Shown: piece by piece, positions 41,569 to 54,781 of the stretch
Position numbering within the stretch: position 1 is the first letter of the stretch
Layout: every line of letters starts with the position of its first letter
IMG/VR virus record: IMGVR_UViG_3300030330_005834
Location: 32,001 to 96,000 of that record
From: a virus
Lineage: Duplodnaviria > Caudoviricetes
Strand: one strand, 5' to 3'
Length of the DNA: 64,000 bases
The notes under the pieces: model-generated
What the model was told of the DNA's origin: nothing
The model's database searches: none
Seen by the model: the letters and a program-made list of their open reading frames with translations, nothing else
Program-made: the position numbers and the translations under genes

Positions 41569-43374
41569 ATGGCAGGAAAAAAAGTTAAATTACCCCCGAT
41601 AAATTATACTAGCAGAGATTTTACCTCGATCAAGAATGATCTTGAAAATTACGCTAAAAGATACTACCCAGATACATACCAAGATTTCAGCGAAGCTTCG
41701 TTCGGGTCCCTGATGCTTGATATGACTGCTTATGTCGGAGATGTTTTATCTTTTTATCTAGATTACCAAGTAAACGAATCATTCTTGGAAACAGCTTTAG
41801 AATATGGAAATGTTGATAGAATTGCAAGACAAATGGGCTATAAGCAAGGGGGTGCTTCACATTCAAGCGGAATAGTGACCTTATATATGATGCTGCCAGC
41901 ATCCTCAACGAGCATCGGTCCAGACATGAGGTATGCCCCAGTCCTAAAGAACGGAACAAAATTTGTAGCTAATACTGGAGCAATTTTTACTCTAACGGAA
42001 GATGTAGATTTTTCAGAGACAAAGAATGAAATTATTGTTGCTGCAACAAACTCAACAACAGGTCTGCCAACAAAATATGCTATTAGATCACACGGCAGGG
42101 TTGTATCTGGTGAGTTAAAGGTACAATATTTATCTGTAGGAGAATATCAAAGATTTCCTAAATTCTTCTTAGATGACAGAAATATAACAGAAATCATCTC
42201 TGTAACAGATACTTCTGGAAATAAATATTTTGAAGTAGACAATTTAACACAAGATACAGTTTATGTGCCGGTTACCAATAGGTTATCCGATAAAAATTTA
42301 GTACCATTTATCATGAAGCCAAGAGCGGTACCAAGAAGATACATTGTGGAACATAGGGGATCTGAGACCTCCATACAATTTGGGTACGGCTCCGTTGCAA
42401 ACGCAACATCTGATGTAGTAACAGACCCAGCAAACGTTATCATGGATACGCACGGAAGAAATTACGTTACGGATCGCTCTTTCGACCCGACTAATCTAAT
42501 AGAAACGGACAAGCTTGGGATAGCACCATCTAATACCACCTTGACCGTCATATACAGAGCAAACGGTACAAATAAGATCAACATAAGCGCCAATTCTCTA
42601 ACTTCGATGGCGGATGTTAATATCAAGTTCAAAAATTCAGCTCTTTTGTCTGAAGGGGAAATGAGAGAAGTGGTAGCTAGCTTGGAATTTGAAAACGACG
42701 AGCCAATTGTCGGGGACACCTCTACTATTTCAGCAGAAGAAATTAAGCAAAGGGCTTATGGGGTATACGCAGCCCAGAACCGAGCAGTTACTAAGGAGGA
42801 CTATATAGCTCTAGCCTATAACATGCCGGGAAAATTTGGATCAGTAAAAAGAATGAACATCGTACAAGATAAAAATTCATTCAAAAGAAATCTAAATTTG
42901 TATATTGTTTCAGAAAACCCCGATGGAAATCTAATCCCCAGCCCTTCAACATTAAAAAATAATTTAAAAACTTGGATTTCAAACTATAAAATGATTAATG
43001 ATTCTATAGATATTTTAGATGGAAAAATAATAAATTTTTCAATAACCTATGAAATAATGGTAGATAGAGAAGAAAACAGATTTAGTGCAATCTCTAAAGC
43101 AAACGCAGCTTTAGCCAACAGGTTCTCTAGAAATAAATTTGAATTTGGTGAACCGATTAACTATTCCGATGTATTTCAGGTCTTGAAAAATATAGACAGC
43201 ATTTTAGATGTTGGCGAGGTTACCATAAAACAGCAAACCGGCGCACTTTATTCGGATGTTAGTTTTAACTTTGATAACTTTCTTGCTGCTAATGGAAGAA
43301 TGGTAATCCCTCCAGAGGATTTTATATTTGAACTTAGATTTCCCTCTAGGGATATAGTTGGGAGTGTTATTTAA
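41569..43374 (+). CDS. Baseplate wedge subunit, T4 gp6/BpJ-like
   Basis: DFTSIK..L......DF...S....L.DM.AY....SFY.....NESFL.TA, A..MGY, IQFG.G, AQNRAVT.EDY. Confidence 0.92.
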   Translation: MAGKKVKLPPINYTSRDFTSIKNDLENYAKRYYPDTYQDFSEASFGSLMLDMTAYVGDVLSFYLDYQVNESFLETALEYGNVDRIARQMGYKQGGASHSSGIVTLYMMLPASSTSIGPDMRYAPVLKNGTKFVANTGAIFTLTEDVDFSETKNEIIVAATNSTTGLPTKYAIRSHGRVVSGELKVQYLSVGEYQRFPKFFLDDRNITEIISVTDTSGNKYFEVDNLTQDTVYVPVTNRLSDKNLVPFIMKPRAVPRRYIVEHRGSETSIQFGYGSVANATSDVVTDPANVIMDTHGRNYVTDRSFDPTNLIETDKLGIAPSNTTLTVIYRANGTNKINISANSLTSMADVNIKFKNSALLSEGEMREVVASLEFENDEPIVGDTSTISAEEIKQRAYGVYAAQNRAVTKEDYIALAYNMPGKFGSVKRMNIVQDKNSFKRNLNLYIVSENPDGNLIPSPSTLKNNLKTWISNYKMINDSIDILDGKIINFSITYEIMVDREENRFSAISKANAALANRFSRNKFEFGEPINYSDVFQVLKNIDSILDVGEVTIKQQTGALYSDVSFNFDNFLAANGRMVIPPEDFIFELRFPSRDIVGSVI

Positions 43375-54300: not shown

Positions 54301-54781
54301 TGGAAGCACAGGGTATGGAAACTCCCCTTTCAAAAGTTCATCTTCCGATATTAAATGGATGGTGTTCAAAGTCAAGAAAAGAGGAAAGAACAATTACTTT
54401 AATGTAACAAAGAAATCAGAAAAAGCACTCGGATTCCCATTCACAACAGATGCGGAATTGGCTCAGTTTTCTTCTGTGCCCAATAAAGAACTTAACTACA
54501 GCTACAATTGGCCATATGATTTCTTCTCTCTCGTAGAATTAGCACAATTGGAGGTTGGAGTTGATATCACTCCGAAACCAATAAGCCAAAATGCCGCTCA
54601 ATTGGCAGCCCTCGCACAAGCCGGAGGAAATTCAGCAGCAACAGCGCAGGACTCCGATGCTCCGGTTGGAGCAACGACACAGATTACGGATGGATCTGAG
54701 AGTACGTCTACAATGGGAACCGATACTGTTGGAAAATCCACAACCGATATTGATTCTATTGGGGCTTTAAAGCCATTTTAA
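45323..54781 (+). CDS. Giant (3152 aa) baseplate wedge protein, gp7-like, with LamG/ConA-like domains
   Basis: LamG motifs TVEFW, DWNHYAFV, KLYINGNL, FDEFRFW, YFKFNEG and a second degenerate LamG; gp7-like NNL.FILKSKGTEKSLR.LIRCFG. Confidence 0.7.
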   Translation: MVKGFKGPKVTKASSLFKKYKASVYNAPKSLVSSSFNKISREIESPAYAEAFLKDRSRYKPNVDFTNPANFARFGSAEEYYKKSIENIYKTYPYDGSLKEKYEWHNSSSYFDNYFFEYEYPRTNGFISIGQTYVAAGTAADDGVDKIVEPTNPQYISIKGGPHGPQAPAYDANFSKQLDYTDSDFKANIYNPTSSQTQNLSIDAPNGNTVEFWMKLPLEPSKSQTSPSHAYFDLWNGSTGKTSTGTYGRFLVETRLNRTLNGSYIEDSIFHLTYMSGTSGVERAKIGPTTLSGAYNIDLSDWNHYAFVAQNHPTGSHHLELKLYINGNLIDTVHTGSQFSAVTQGPFNANIGAYRYNPASNLTVTNGEGSLSGSSFDEFRFWKFARTEKEINKNWFTQVAGGSNTDYGSVDSKFSGSSFPVDLGVYFKFNEGITGYGSQDSVVLDYSGRVSNGTYNNYPAASAEAVRFTDSAIVSASAADREFKDPIIYNNHPTVVSLTSDKTAQGLEYDTRNSMSIYSMMPQWILDEDSQKSTFQIKKLSQIIASYFDELYIQTQQLKDLKNETYISGSVSGSVYKPIPFANRLLENRGFVAPELFSTADVLPFLANRDDVREYKTELVNVKNQIYTNIYNNLNFILKSKGTEKSLRNLIRCFGVDDDIYALSFYANNAEITLNQSITPKIITKNFANFATASNFNALVYQSTASSNTNSAMYITGSSKSSGFDASIGFTVETDVIFPAKLDIENPRAAERDYTALSSSLFGMHAAEPAPSDEGDTSWAAENYGNFQVYAVRERNSQLGIGQAYSADEIKFVLTGTNVNATTEACIPFLTSSTFEDVYDDEKWHFAVKVVPTSYPNLGIVSGTSGYTVEFHGYNTQADIVANSFVLTGSVTSGDLVLASKKRLYIGAHRTNYTGSLICGSDTKISSCRYWALPLEKDEIVSHAIDASNHGLFDSMESAYLFQNFKVNVPKIRTLALNWDFATVTGTDADGEFVVQDFSSGSGDSVFRKDLSDLLLKQHTGRGLFFHPSSTDAISKQHVFSYKQQVPENLDISDTVKIINKDQEFFTPRTRPTTFSFAVEKSMYQSISEQMLNFLACSAEASGLENLVGDPVNKYRSEYKLLKKIREIFFERVGNTPDLDTYLEYFQWLDTAIGKMINQMVPASSEVDSLSNVVESHIFERSKVQHRFPTFENALGDPSGTISGINHLMYNWQYGHAPISGEDQGVNCLWWSKKATRDDASLLVGNSAVDTNRQEIHSASLQVFNRKFNSPYRITAKEGTGPLKTKYNKRSIVLTETQPFDNTRTITYDTTTFSTSSVVCSDEDKINPNLKRSAHYQVQLNDATNTQSKYSNTLVSPYTFFSSSVTTAATGVPAGFQAGPDHLRDYYLDTKDVPAQGPFTRQHVGGNQYRNIGFVWKPAQINGPTEPRKDTRPEAWFALATLAGGNLYYTIINPSYFGSSFTRANFTRDFIAKSPVNIKNIKTDTTTLSSSYGSIVSIGNYAKNYEIVQIPDRSINNRYLAENNGIPTASTASPSVFGLKDYTVPDRGKHASIMVNRFSAPGGPEVNSPGYLDYESETFSVYNALPFRNLTVRQPLKGWLTKHSAFGGYDSEYGSPSASYHKVQRNGAKKIKYSEARVYGVAENITTSSVYDNYWVQHMIPQSDLQYSWITASAISAPFGYSQPDANNASEASTDISFVEASEHGSYILNSDKKRYYGINKYSSGLDGTNRYGFVPVDFVGLNTNFYNIYDFSLNTITHTNRNTSIVNGGYVSLNHAGGRIGIPAKLNAINLRRNGAGGFSSWKQVRQSYHPIVRYNNKNNLITLATSSVVKFADNGSILKERTIAHFREPPVTFCYKPLKHTLTLKNGDDVDVKHTYANNLHTFNSKRINQLIDFETDRSEEVYEDLKRIYLDQDLGEWSPISQFKSLNYREIVYPSKKHAALAKTRERENYTVSSGSDNFNLRLGDSVAFWKDNINDRLRAEGVAKNAQNTTIFSASAPIGMIDLSIWPLDAEEPFFNWYLVSGSAVGGTNAGFDPYFWSPLGPSGAFMRPDLEPKWNDVMKNGELSYAGWLFTLYDLNLDGKFRKGGSTDRGPITNTRAYQGGSSGCRVTASFQYEYPNLVWSGSFPYGTPTQTRFVDGFASGSGEGQEFVTLQSSASLHLIPPYRADVLSGRAPWYNSYEDFAEDIRLMGKDYSIIPEFKISDHIAYYLDNGSSAENNKFLDLIGSTLSSTSSATTELAPFNKQFVRLYSNSDFMSKFAEIKQDHKKGSTATPSRITLKVNAIKKLLPYNGFYPALRAVQLGHLFSASYAPFLSGSSNYTDAEAPMERLAALYQPFFAPGIFFNTIKSGIAVDYSVHTGSVPGTLNMVADVSPIGGIQYQKFLGVDSPFSASNICLNLIAQEPNYAFPFEAILNPNRYLPLTASQNSLTDADIAFGTGYSSGSVHFIYPHFSGSLLGKPQADGFSEPWFASSTTATDGRTKADIFFTWNGQSDIKYSLAANNFFAEVSEFFLERKSPTSFVSKQEKDFKPMVSGSVYVMDVVLSKTDDFVSYEGPSGSFEYHPYSGSNAPNVLHIQAFGSGRGPGQALPGSNRGNPKVSARGMHYGPPYVAEFQMLSQQNIESAYFEDPCFAIHTPPYFYGDAVARIEFRPHEVRDMKPAEGQSLPESAKFTLQEILANSKMSTKYFNTNKRAKAFQQPTFYASYAAGRKQMHISSSVDLFGSITLKQVEYSSKKDDEGNFVADGVNTTVLQDSQDAWVIESKFECPSINLHDMDVASLGAASGLGREALYTRGLWKGYGQPPTGSAGIFLQLRESAVQRQSSAFLNPDAPVFLTGSLIDICGFEASKERVGEIASSREISEAVVAIPMNSNGEFYNIDPAMFLQQLVNVNNGDPAIKQGQFEAPSDITETSISHMIKMMKKYIVPPQFDPIKNASASPVVMYIFEFTHTLSKTDLSYIWQNLMPDIAMKAEKDSSIIQHDVRSKYEFFGSTGYGNSPFKSSSSDIKWMVFKVKKRGKNNYFNVTKKSEKALGFPFTTDAELAQFSSVPNKELNYSYNWPYDFFSLVELAQLEVGVDITPKPISQNAAQLAALAQAGGNSAATAQDSDAPVGATTQITDGSESTSTMGTDTVGKSTTDIDSIGALKPF

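What the first reader, a model, noticed from the sequence alone, without database searches (positions are those of the whole stretch)
43374..54781. Selective enrichment of the [S/T]-G-S and [S/T]-A-S tripeptides in two baseplate proteins
My hand count gives about 23 [ST]GS (e.g. PTGS, HTGS, LSGS, FSGS, ISGSVSGS, ITGS, LTGS, YTGS, WSGS, YSGS) and about 15 [ST]AS in the 3152-aa protein. A rough composition estimate predicts about 5 of each. The 649-aa protein has 6 [ST]GS. The equally long 3168-aa neighbour has only about 2. The motifs are dispersed rather than tandem, occur inside and outside the LamG domains, use varied codons and usually follow a hydrophobic residue. This points to protein-level selection for a short linear motif (a modification sequon or a recurrent beta-turn), not DNA duplication.
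Basis: partly seen in the sequence, partly recalled or inferred. Interest (0 to 1): 0.8.

Follow-up and report, generated by a model that had tools for sequence, protein, structure and literature searches.

The report
Ser/Thr-Gly-Ser tag on phage baseplate proteins
Several unrelated outer tail proteins of this uncultured aquatic phage carry the three-residue pattern Ser/Thr-Gly/Ala-Ser four to eight times more often than chance, and it is inherited together with a core pair of phage sugar-transferase genes, so it may mark where the phage attaches sugars to its own particle, although no chemistry shows this and a purely structural role is not excluded.

Summary
The 3152-aa protein has 23 [ST]GS (4.2 expected, z 9.3) and 15 [ST]AS (4.5 expected). 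The 649-aa protein has 6 [ST]GS (1.3 expected). The 3168-aa neighbour has 2 (2.1 expected). Codons vary and there are no internal repeats, so the signal is at protein level. It holds across whole families: 4.8x in 120 homologs of the large protein, 6.3x in the 649-aa family, and 7.7x in a third, unrelated family just beyond the window. Within the marine clade the whole excess sits at conserved positions; lineage-private sites are at chance level. Two cultured relatives at about 30% identity, Flavobacterium phage immuto and Microcystis phage Mel-JY01, keep the excess with many sites moved. The motif needs hydroxyl residues at both ends and prefers a hydrophobic residue before it. An orthologous pair of GT4 glycosyltransferases, beside a 23-kb sugar island, is present in every motif-rich genome checked. 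Rhodothermus phage RM378 lacks the second GT4 and lacks the excess. Best reading (0.45): an acceptor motif for virion O-glycosylation. Main rival (0.35): a structural or assembly element. Other agents of this scan reported the same motif on other genomes; I tested their glycosyltransferase link only partly.

The parts
45323..54781 (+). 3152-aa giant baseplate-module protein (A) with 38 [ST][GA]S sites. It is a distant, much longer homolog of the 1265-aa protein of Flavobacterium phage immuto.
   Evidence: Residues 1900-3000 fold with pTM 0.85 and have no solved structural relative.
45911..46498 (+). Laminin_G_3 (ConA-like) domain of A, residues 197-392. It contains sites 314, 335 and 372. Site 372 overlies the Gly before the domain's last strand (SGSsfDEfRfW).
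   Evidence: 32.5 bits, cut-off 27.6; site 372 is kept as SGS/SAS/TGS/TAS in 25 of 27 homologs.
43374..45323 (+). 649-aa protein (B) directly after the wedge gene, with 8 [ST][GA]S sites, 6 of them kept in more than 80% of 86 homologs.
   Evidence: The model has Ig/FN3-like sandwiches plus conserved low-confidence segments that hold or adjoin most of the sites.
41569..43374 (+). gp6-like baseplate wedge subunit. It anchors the module's identity and is itself motif-free (0 sites).
   Evidence: phrog_219, E 1e-18; (about 31% identity to the immuto and Mel-JY01 wedge proteins).
6032..7288 (+). GT4-1, the first member of the lineage-core glycosyltransferase pair.
   Evidence: Glycos_transf_1, 61 bits; nearest solved relatives are BshA and chlorovirus B736L. 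Orthologs: immuto E 2e-76, and also Mel-JY01 and RM378.
7307..8578 (+). GT4-2, the second and more divergent member of the pair. It is present in every motif-rich genome checked and absent from RM378.
   Evidence: Orthologs: immuto E 2e-71, Mel-JY01 E 8e-53, 5 of 5 near-complete relatives at 39-56% identity. No match in RM378.
8578..27229 (+). Remainder of the glycan-biosynthesis island: GT2, UDP-GlcNAc 2-epimerase, three FkbM methyltransferases, two DegT aminotransferases, a formyltransferase, RmlC, GT11, a further GT4-type gene (Glyco_trans_1_2), four NAD-dependent epimerase/dehydratases and a PfkB kinase.
31565..41071 (+). 3168-aa neighbour used as an internal negative control: [ST]GS 2 vs 2.1 expected.

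Best explanation
The pattern hydrophobic-[Ser/Thr]-[Gly/Ala, sometimes Ser]-Ser is an acceptor motif for a covalent modification of selected outer baseplate and fibre-anchor proteins. The modification is most likely O-glycosylation in the host cytoplasm by the phage's conserved GT4-1/GT4-2 pair, using sugars made by the adjacent island.
Shown here: the excess, its specificity, its conservation, its restriction to a few virion proteins, and its co-inheritance with the GT4 pair.
Inferred: that the GT4 pair acts on proteins, that the motif's Ser/Thr is the acceptor, and that the purpose is a glycan coat on the distal tail (protection, host recognition or assembly).
For: 1. Specificity for hydroxyl residues. 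Observed/expected in 28 full-length homologs is about 4.3 for [ST][GA]S, but 1.0 for [DN][GA]S, 1.5 for [ST][GA]T, 0.9 for [ST][GA]N and 0.7 for [ST][DN]S. A generic Asx/ST turn should accept Asp/Asn.
2. Three unrelated families in one tail module share the motif: A 4.8x, B 6.3x, and the 389/387-aa paralogs 7.7x. The 3168-, 1411-, 1059-, 1050- and 601-aa proteins, and the rest of the genome, are at chance.
3. The excess persists in the homologous proteins of two cultured phages at about 30% identity. By eye, immuto has 5+3 sites in 1265 aa and 3+2 in 369 aa. Mel-JY01 has 11+2 in 1336 aa, 4 in 386 aa and 4+3 in each collar paralog. Many sites do not align with this phage's sites, so density is kept while positions move.
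4. The GT4 pair is orthologous and as conserved as the baseplate genes and is present in 5 of 5 near-complete relatives. RM378 has GT4-1 but not GT4-2, and its collar protein has 1 site vs about 0.5 expected.
5. In B, most invariant sites lie in or next to strongly conserved segments that do not fold confidently in the monomer model.
6. Precedent for cytoplasmic O-glycosylation in similar contexts: C. jejuni flagellin carries glycans on Ser343 and Ser345 of DILISGSNL and within GFSSGSGYS (PMC4975691). Virion glycosylation by phage-encoded transferases is known for mycobacteriophages (cited in PMC12619734).
Against: - No chemistry of any kind supports it.
- Nothing shows that the GT4 pair acts on protein. 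Both members are generic GT4 enzymes, and such enzymes in phages could instead modify DNA or host surface glycans.
- Within the marine clade the whole excess (24.4 of 31.9 sites per protein) is positionally conserved, and lineage-private sites (7.5) equal the composition expectation (7.4). That is what a structural requirement predicts.
- Roughly 12 of 28 modelled sites sit at the C-terminal end of a beta-strand. A few lie inside confident helices or strands (2310, 2318, 472) and may be buried.
- Site 372 coincides with a Gly that the LamG fold needs anyway.
- The negative control is a single genome, and the counts for cultured phages were made by eye with rough expectations.
- Solvent exposure could not be computed.
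Confidence: 0.45

Rival explanations
1. The motif is a structural or assembly element. A hydrophobic residue ends a beta-strand, and a small residue flanked by two hydroxyls forms a tight turn, bulge or cap, or a contact between baseplate subunits. These proteins reuse it many times. It is conserved because the fold or the assembled baseplate needs it, and no modification is involved.
For: - All excess sites are positionally conserved within the marine clade, and private sites are at chance.
- Motif residues are more conserved than the same residues elsewhere: third Ser 0.54 vs 0.32.
- The flanks are hydrophobic: I/V/L/P at -1 and A/L/V at +3.
- About 12 of 28 modelled sites directly follow a strand.
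- The middle residue is restricted to Gly > Ala > Ser.
- Site 372 overlies the canonical LamG Gly.
- The conserved low-pLDDT segments of B could be inter-subunit arms that order only in the baseplate.
Against: - The three families have unrelated folds: mixed alpha/beta with no known relative, Ig-like sandwiches, and a collar domain. Yet they share the motif, while other large proteins of the same virion do not.
- Asp/Asn are not accepted at position 1, nor Thr/Asn/Asp at position 3.
- Secondary-structure contexts are heterogeneous.
- Distant homologs keep the folds and the excess but not the same sites. For example, VISGSIF aligns with ILNGEAL and IITDEIV.
Confidence: 0.35
2. The motif is a recognition element for something other than a glycosyltransferase: another modification of Ser/Thr (for example phosphorylation or acylation), or a shared assembly chaperone that binds these particular proteins. 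On this view the GT4 pair serves an unrelated purpose such as DNA or host-surface modification.
For: The motif's specificity and its restriction to a subset of virion proteins call for a common reader but do not identify it. The GT4 pair has no feature that marks it as protein-directed.
Against: No candidate kinase, acyltransferase or chaperone was found next to these genes. The only conserved enzyme genes seen to travel with the module are the GT4 pair. This rival was not specifically searched for.
Confidence: 0.12
3. The excess is an artefact of composition, of picking the motif after looking at the sequence, or of divergent internal duplication.
For: The proteins are Ser-rich (10.9% and 10.8%), and the motif was chosen after inspection.
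Against: - Shuffles that keep composition never reach the observed count.
- SGS is the top frequent tripeptide in an unbiased ranking.
- An equally Ser-rich 1411-aa protein has 0 sites.
- The excess replicates in 3 x 120 homologs.
- Codons vary.
- There is no similarity between the halves of A.
Confidence: 0.02

Closest known systems
Virion glycosylation of mycobacteriophages by phage-encoded glycosyltransferases (Freeman et al. 2023; known here only through citations in PMC12619734 and PMC12801897, because the paper itself is not held)
   Same: A tailed phage encodes its own glycosyltransferases, and virion proteins are the proposed targets, modified in the host cytoplasm.
   Different: As cited, the glycans there sit at the C-termini of capsid and tail-tube subunits. 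Here the candidate sites are dispersed, positionally conserved tripeptides in baseplate and fibre-anchor proteins of aquatic myoviruses. The enzymes are an orthologous GT4 pair, and nothing has been shown chemically.
O-glycosylation of Campylobacter jejuni flagellin with nonulosonic acids (Maf-type transferases)
   Same: Cytoplasmic O-glycosylation of many Ser/Thr in a structural protein. Mapped sites follow hydrophobic residues in S-G-S-like contexts, such as Ser343 and Ser345 in DILISGSNL (PMC4975691).
   Different: No Maf (PF01973) in this record or in 5 near-complete relatives, and no NeuB in this record. The sugar island points to deoxy-amino, formylated or methylated hexoses rather than nonulosonates.
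GtfA/GtfB two-protein O-GlcNAc transferase of Gram-positive serine-rich repeat adhesins, and SdgA/SdgB (resemblance recalled from memory)
   Same: An adjacent pair of GT-B/GT4-type genes, one canonical and one more divergent. The acceptors are Ser in S-x-S contexts, modified in the cytoplasm.
   Different: The phage proteins do not match the GtfA/GtfB models. They hit SdgA/SdgB only at 22 and 18 bits against cut-offs of 800. The acceptors here are isolated tripeptides in folded proteins, not low-complexity repeats.
Chlorovirus glycosyltransferase B736L (PDB 3OY2) and virus-encoded capsid glycosylation in chloroviruses (the biology is from my own knowledge)
   Same: B736L is the second-best solved sequence relative of GT4-1 (E 8.5e-11 over residues 163-394). 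It belongs to a virus group that glycosylates its own capsid with virus-encoded enzymes.
   Different: The similarity covers only the generic GT4 C-terminal domain. The acceptor of B736L is not established. Chlorovirus glycans are N-linked at atypical sequons.
Canonical Gly before the last strand of Laminin_G_3 / ConA-like domains
   Same: Site 372 (SGS followed by xfDEfRfW) overlies this Gly.
   Different: It explains 1 of 38 sites. The fold requires the Gly, but as far as I recall it does not require Ser/Thr on both sides; this family fixes them in 25 of 27 homologs.

Membership tests
Phage-encoded virion glycosylation (mycobacteriophage type) | The phage encodes glycosyltransferases | tested here: met
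   Three GT4-type genes plus a GT2 and a GT11. The GT4 pair is orthologous across the lineage.
Phage-encoded virion glycosylation (mycobacteriophage type) | Glycans demonstrated on virion proteins | not testable with these tools
   This needs glycan staining or mass spectrometry of virions.
Phage-encoded virion glycosylation (mycobacteriophage type) | Sites at the C-termini of capsid and tail-tube subunits (as cited in PMC12619734) | tested here: not met
   Candidate sites are dispersed along baseplate-module proteins. Capsid and tube genes were not identified in this 60%-complete record.
Flagellin-type Maf / nonulosonate O-glycosylation | Maf-type transferase (PF01973) | tested here: not met
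   0 hits in this record and 0 of 5 near-complete relatives.
Flagellin-type Maf / nonulosonate O-glycosylation | Nonulosonate synthase (NeuB, PF03102) | tested here: inconclusive
   No hit in this record, which is only about 60% complete. Relatives were not searched.
GtfA/GtfB (or SdgA/SdgB) adhesin O-glycosyltransferases | Match to the curated family models above cut-off | tested here: not met
   NCBIfam gives no GtfA/GtfB hit. SdgA scores 22.4 bits and SdgB 17.9 bits against cut-offs of 800.
GtfA/GtfB (or SdgA/SdgB) adhesin O-glycosyltransferases | Adjacent pair of GT-B genes, one canonical and one divergent | tested here: met
   GT4-1 scores 61 bits and GT4-2 42 bits to PF00534. They share only the nucleotide-sugar motif region (E 5e-05). 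They are adjacent in this phage, in immuto and Mel-JY01 and, by the hit coordinates, in near-complete relatives.
GT4 glycosyltransferases (Pfam Glycos_transf_1) | Score above the Pfam gathering cut-off | tested here: met
   61.3 and 42.0 bits against a cut-off of 26.4.
Laminin_G_3 / ConA-like domain (part of A) | Score above the Pfam gathering cut-off | tested here: met
   32.5 bits against 27.6, residues 197-392. Only one such domain is detectable.
T4 gp6-like baseplate wedge (the 601-aa neighbour that defines the module) | Match to PHROG wedge families and to annotated wedge genes of cultured phages | tested here: met
   phrog_219 E 1.2e-18 and phrog_10646 E 2.1e-20. Annotated as 'baseplate wedge protein' in immuto.
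Generic beta-turn / ST-turn structural motif | Asp/Asn interchangeable with Ser/Thr at the first position | tested here: not met
   [DN][GA]S has observed/expected 1.0, against about 4.3 for [ST][GA]S.
Generic beta-turn / ST-turn structural motif | Uniform local structural context, with the hydroxyls hydrogen-bonded to the backbone | tested here: inconclusive
   About 12 of 28 sites follow a strand end, 2 lie in helices, and about a third lie in low-confidence segments. No coordinates were available to examine the geometry.

The most novel reading that the evidence does not exclude
Hydrophobic-[ST]-[GA]-S is the acceptor sequon of a two-component GT4 protein O-glycosyltransferase that is core to a very large lineage of aquatic myoviruses (thousands of metagenomic relatives, plus the cultured Flavobacterium phage immuto and Microcystis phage Mel-JY01). 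On this reading the phages coat chosen baseplate and fibre-anchor proteins with a phage-made glycan, whose composition is diversified by the variable sugar island.
Probability: 0.4. Interest if true: 0.85.

Novelty: new variant of a known kind. Interest (0 to 1): 0.65.

Why it matters
Sugar-biosynthesis and 'LPS-like' gene clusters are common in marine and freshwater phages, and their purpose has stayed unclear. If this motif is a glycosylation sequon, it would give those clusters a target, namely the phage's own baseplate. It would also define the first sequence-readable sequon for phage virion glycosylation, and it would let glycosylated virion proteins be predicted from sequence across thousands of uncultured phages. 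That bears on host recognition, resistance to proteases and grazers, and immune or defence evasion. The idea can be tested directly, because two cultured phages carry both the motif-rich proteins and the orthologous glycosyltransferase pair. If the motif is structural instead, it would be an unusually specific building block shared by unrelated folds of one molecular machine, which would interest baseplate structural biologists.

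Tried and rejected
- DNA duplication or internal repeats: rejected. Codons vary, the halves of A are not similar, and A and B are unrelated.
- Composition artefact: rejected.
- Sequence relatives with solved structures: none for A or B.
- Fold searches: the A segment has no match (Foldseek E > 1; best VIA Z 4.4). B gives only generic Ig/FN3 sandwiches from a mediocre model.
- PHROGs: nothing for A, B or the 389/387-aa proteins.
- Protein atlas: only unnamed viral clusters.
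- INPHARED nucleotide and protein searches with A and B: no match. The homology of immuto's 1265- and 369-aa proteins was seen only by direct pairwise comparison.
- Maf/NeuB system: absent.
- GtfA/GtfB or SdgA/SdgB membership: not met.
- Freeman et al. 2023 could not be read because it is not held. A literature search for a known phage sequon found none.
- Not done: the script machine was lost. After that, the motif counts for immuto, Mel-JY01 and RM378 were made by eye from translations, with rough expectations. Planned analyses were not run: repeat detection within each half of A, solvent exposure, and a statistical test of strand-end preference. Model coordinates are not exposed by the tools in any case.

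Full report
OBSERVATION

Against 1000 shuffles that keep each protein's composition:
- The 3152-aa protein (A, 45323-54781) has 23 [ST]GS vs 4.2 expected (z 9.3) and 15 [ST]AS vs 4.5 (z 5.1). No shuffle reaches either count.
- The 649-aa protein (B, 43374-45323) has 6 [ST]GS vs 1.3 (p 0.002).
- The 3168-aa neighbour has 2 vs 2.1, and an equally Ser-rich 1411-aa protein has 0 vs 1.6.

The motif was not simply cherry-picked. In an unbiased ranking, SGS (15 vs 2.6) is the most over-represented of the frequent tripeptides in A, and GS is the top dipeptide. The 23 [ST]GS sites use TCN and AGY for Ser, all four Gly codons, and ACN, TCN or AGY at position 1. The two halves of A show no similarity (best E 0.22), and A and B are unrelated.

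FAMILY-WIDE AND IN A THIRD FAMILY

A has more than 825 metagenomic homologs, mostly marine. Across the 120 retrieved, [ST]GS is 4.8x and [ST]AS 3.3x expectation, and no member falls below 2.9x. The B family (more than 1800 homologs) shows 6.3x and 3.0x.

A genome-wide control on the 106-kb record found little excess outside A and B (26 vs 16.6). Much of that came from two adjacent paralogous ORFs just past the window's end, L083:1350-2519 (389 aa) and L083:2535-3698 (387 aa). The 389-aa family (more than 8000 homologs) shows 7.7x [ST]GS, with five sites kept in at least 90% of sequences. So at least three unrelated protein families of one tail module share the motif. The wedge protein and the 3168-, 1411-, 1059- and 1050-aa proteins do not.

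ANATOMY OF THE MOTIF

Observed/expected ratios in 28 full-length A homologs:
- about 4.3 for [ST][GA]S
- 2.5 for [ST]SS
- 1.5 for [ST][GA]T
- 1.0 for [DN][GA]S
- 0.9 for [ST][GA]N and for [ST]PS
- 0.7 for [ST][DN]S
- 6.7 when a hydrophobic residue precedes the motif, 3.3 otherwise

Within conserved alignment columns, SGS, SAS, TGS and TAS interchange freely (for example site 372: 11, 8, 5 and 1 sequences). The motif's third Ser is conserved at 0.54, against 0.32 for other Ser. The three residues after the motif are less conserved than average.

CONSERVED OR TURNING OVER?

Within the marine clade (13 clusters below 60% identity), a protein carries on average 31.9 sites. Of these, 24.4 are shared at the same column with another cluster. 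Only 7.5 are private, against a composition expectation of 7.4. At this depth the whole excess is inherited, conserved positions, which a structural requirement also predicts.

At greater depth the picture changes. The gp6-like wedge gene led to two cultured relatives at about 31% identity, Flavobacterium phage immuto and Microcystis phage Mel-JY01. Their genes in the corresponding positions are recognisable homologs of A, B and the paralog pair. Counts made by eye from the translations ([ST]GS + [ST]AS):
- immuto: 5+3 in 1265 aa and 3+2 in 369 aa.
- Mel-JY01: 11+2 in 1336 aa, 4+0 in 386 aa, and 4+3 in each collar paralog.
- The rough expectation is about 1.2 [ST]GS per 1300 aa.

Many of these sites do not align with this phage's sites:
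- A's ISGSVSGS aligns with a motif-free stretch of immuto, and immuto's VSGS...ITGS aligns with a motif-free stretch of A.
- The 389-aa protein's VISGSIF aligns with ILNGEAL and IITDEIV.
- A few sites are deeply conserved, such as B's site 47 and PSGS in Mel-JY01.

Alignments at 26-30% identity are uncertain. Taken at face value, density is maintained while positions move, and the folds do not need particular sites.

STRUCTURE

Residues 1900-3000 of A fold well from a 75-sequence alignment (pTM 0.85). The model is mixed alpha/beta with no solved relative. B folds less well (mean pLDDT 66) into Ig/FN3-like sandwiches.

Of the 28 modelled sites, about 12 directly follow the end of a beta-strand, two lie in helices, and about a third lie in low-confidence segments. 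In B, five of the eight sites lie in or next to segments that are almost invariant in sequence yet have pLDDT below 50. These may be flexible, exposed stretches, or arms that become ordered only inside the baseplate. No coordinates were available, so exposure could not be measured.

Site 372 overlies the Gly before the last strand of the single detectable LamG domain.

THE SUGAR GENES

The first 28 kb of the window, directly upstream of the tail module, holds a glycan-biosynthesis island of about 23 kb. It encodes:
- three GT4-type glycosyltransferases, a GT2 and a GT11
- UDP-GlcNAc 2-epimerase and RmlC
- four NAD-dependent epimerase/dehydratases
- two DegT aminotransferases and a formyltransferase
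- three FkbM methyltransferases and a sugar kinase

Its first two genes, GT4-1 (6032-7288) and GT4-2 (7307-8578), are barely related to each other. Both have full-length orthologs in immuto (E 2e-76 and 2e-71, 32-34% identity). GT4-2 also has a full-length ortholog in Mel-JY01 (E 8e-53), where GT4-1 matches two adjacent ORFs. GT4-2 is present in all five near-complete relatives at 39-56% identity. That is better conserved than the A segment in the same genomes (27-37%). The pair is therefore a vertically inherited core feature that travels with the baseplate module.

The one negative case I could find is Rhodothermus phage RM378. It has a GT4-1 ortholog but no GT4-2. Its collar-domain protein has 1 site against about 0.5 expected, and a neighbouring 661-aa protein has 2+1.

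COMPARISON WITH KNOWN SYSTEMS

- Virion glycosylation by phage-encoded transferases is established for mycobacteriophages, where the glycans sit at the C-termini of capsid and tail-tube subunits (as cited in PMC12619734; the original paper is not held).
- Cytoplasmic O-glycosylation of C. jejuni flagellin occurs on Ser after hydrophobic residues in S-G-S-like contexts (PMC4975691). This lineage, however, has no Maf enzyme, and no NeuB was found in this record.
- The adjacent canonical-plus-divergent GT pair recalls GtfA/GtfB of serine-rich adhesins, but the curated models are not matched.
- The nearest solved relatives of GT4-1 are BshA and the chlorovirus enzyme B736L.

The candidate system may work like these, but it is a member of none of them.

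VERDICT

The reading 'selection on a short protein motif' is supported.

Between the two mechanisms offered, I favour a modification sequon at 0.45, most likely O-glycosylation by the GT4 pair. The reasons are the hydroxyl specificity, the sharing among unrelated folds but not other virion proteins, the persistence of density with moved sites in distant relatives, and the co-inheritance with the GT4 pair. A structural or assembly element stays a serious rival at 0.35, because of the strict positional conservation within the marine clade and the strand-end contexts.

Other agents of this scan reported the same motif on other genomes, along with a link to a glycosyltransferase pair. I treated those notes as leads. 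My own tests support the link in eight genomes with both features and one with neither, which is suggestive but far from a proper phylogenetic test.

Noticed in passing
window 6032-27229 (+): A glycan-biosynthesis island of about 23 kb lies directly upstream of the tail module: three GT4-type genes, GT2, GT11, UDP-GlcNAc 2-epimerase, RmlC, four NAD epimerase/dehydratases, two DegT aminotransferases, a formyltransferase, three FkbM methyltransferases and a PfkB kinase. The enzyme set suggests formylated or methylated deoxy-amino sugars. Only the first two GT4 genes were checked for conservation across the lineage.
   Followed up: partly
L083:1350-2519 and L083:2535-3698 (genome 96349-97518 and 97534-98697, just beyond the window end): Two adjacent paralogs of 389 and 387 aa. 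Their C-termini end in a ...GLY...L.AVAKL..P..K......L..LDY segment that, from memory, resembles the second half of the P2 gpH/DUF3751 tail-collar domain. Other first-stage notes of this scan describe the same apparent 'split collar domain' in other genomes. The 389-aa family is extremely abundant, with more than 8000 homologs.
   Followed up: partly
window 43374-45323, residues 1-56, 114-135, 340-373, 584-587 of the 649-aa protein: These segments are almost invariant across 86 homologs but are predicted with pLDDT below 50. They may be inter-subunit arms that become ordered only in the assembled baseplate.
   Followed up: no
window 51020-54322 (residues 1900-3000 of the 3152-aa protein): A confidently predicted (pTM 0.85) mixed alpha/beta region of about 1100 residues with no significant match in the PDB by Foldseek or VIA-align (best Z 4.4, to FliD and myophage sheath or baseplate chains). 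It may contain new folds. Single domains were not folded separately.
   Followed up: partly
window 31565-41071: The 3168-aa neighbour has no [ST]GS excess but a mild [ST]AS excess (6 vs 1.7, p 0.01). It also has a sub-threshold bacterial SH3 hit at residues 1365-1417 (21.5 bits vs cut-off 27).
   Followed up: no
L088 (Mel-JY01 record 83444-84536): In Microcystis phage Mel-JY01, the GT4-1 ortholog matches two separate adjacent ORFs: the N-terminal half in a 198-aa frame and the C-terminal half in a 313-aa frame. It could be a split gene, a frameshift or a sequencing error. The motif excess is nevertheless present in that phage.
   Followed up: no
relatives G002 and G004 (records behind L027 and L054): The GT4-2 ortholog lies in much longer open frames (843 and 702 aa) than the usual 420-430 aa, which suggests fusions to an extra domain in some relatives.
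   Followed up: no
window 2833-4140: A PhoH-like gene (phrog_2765, E 1e-117), typical of marine phages. The record is about 60% complete by CheckV, and complete relatives are 160-210 kb.
   Followed up: no
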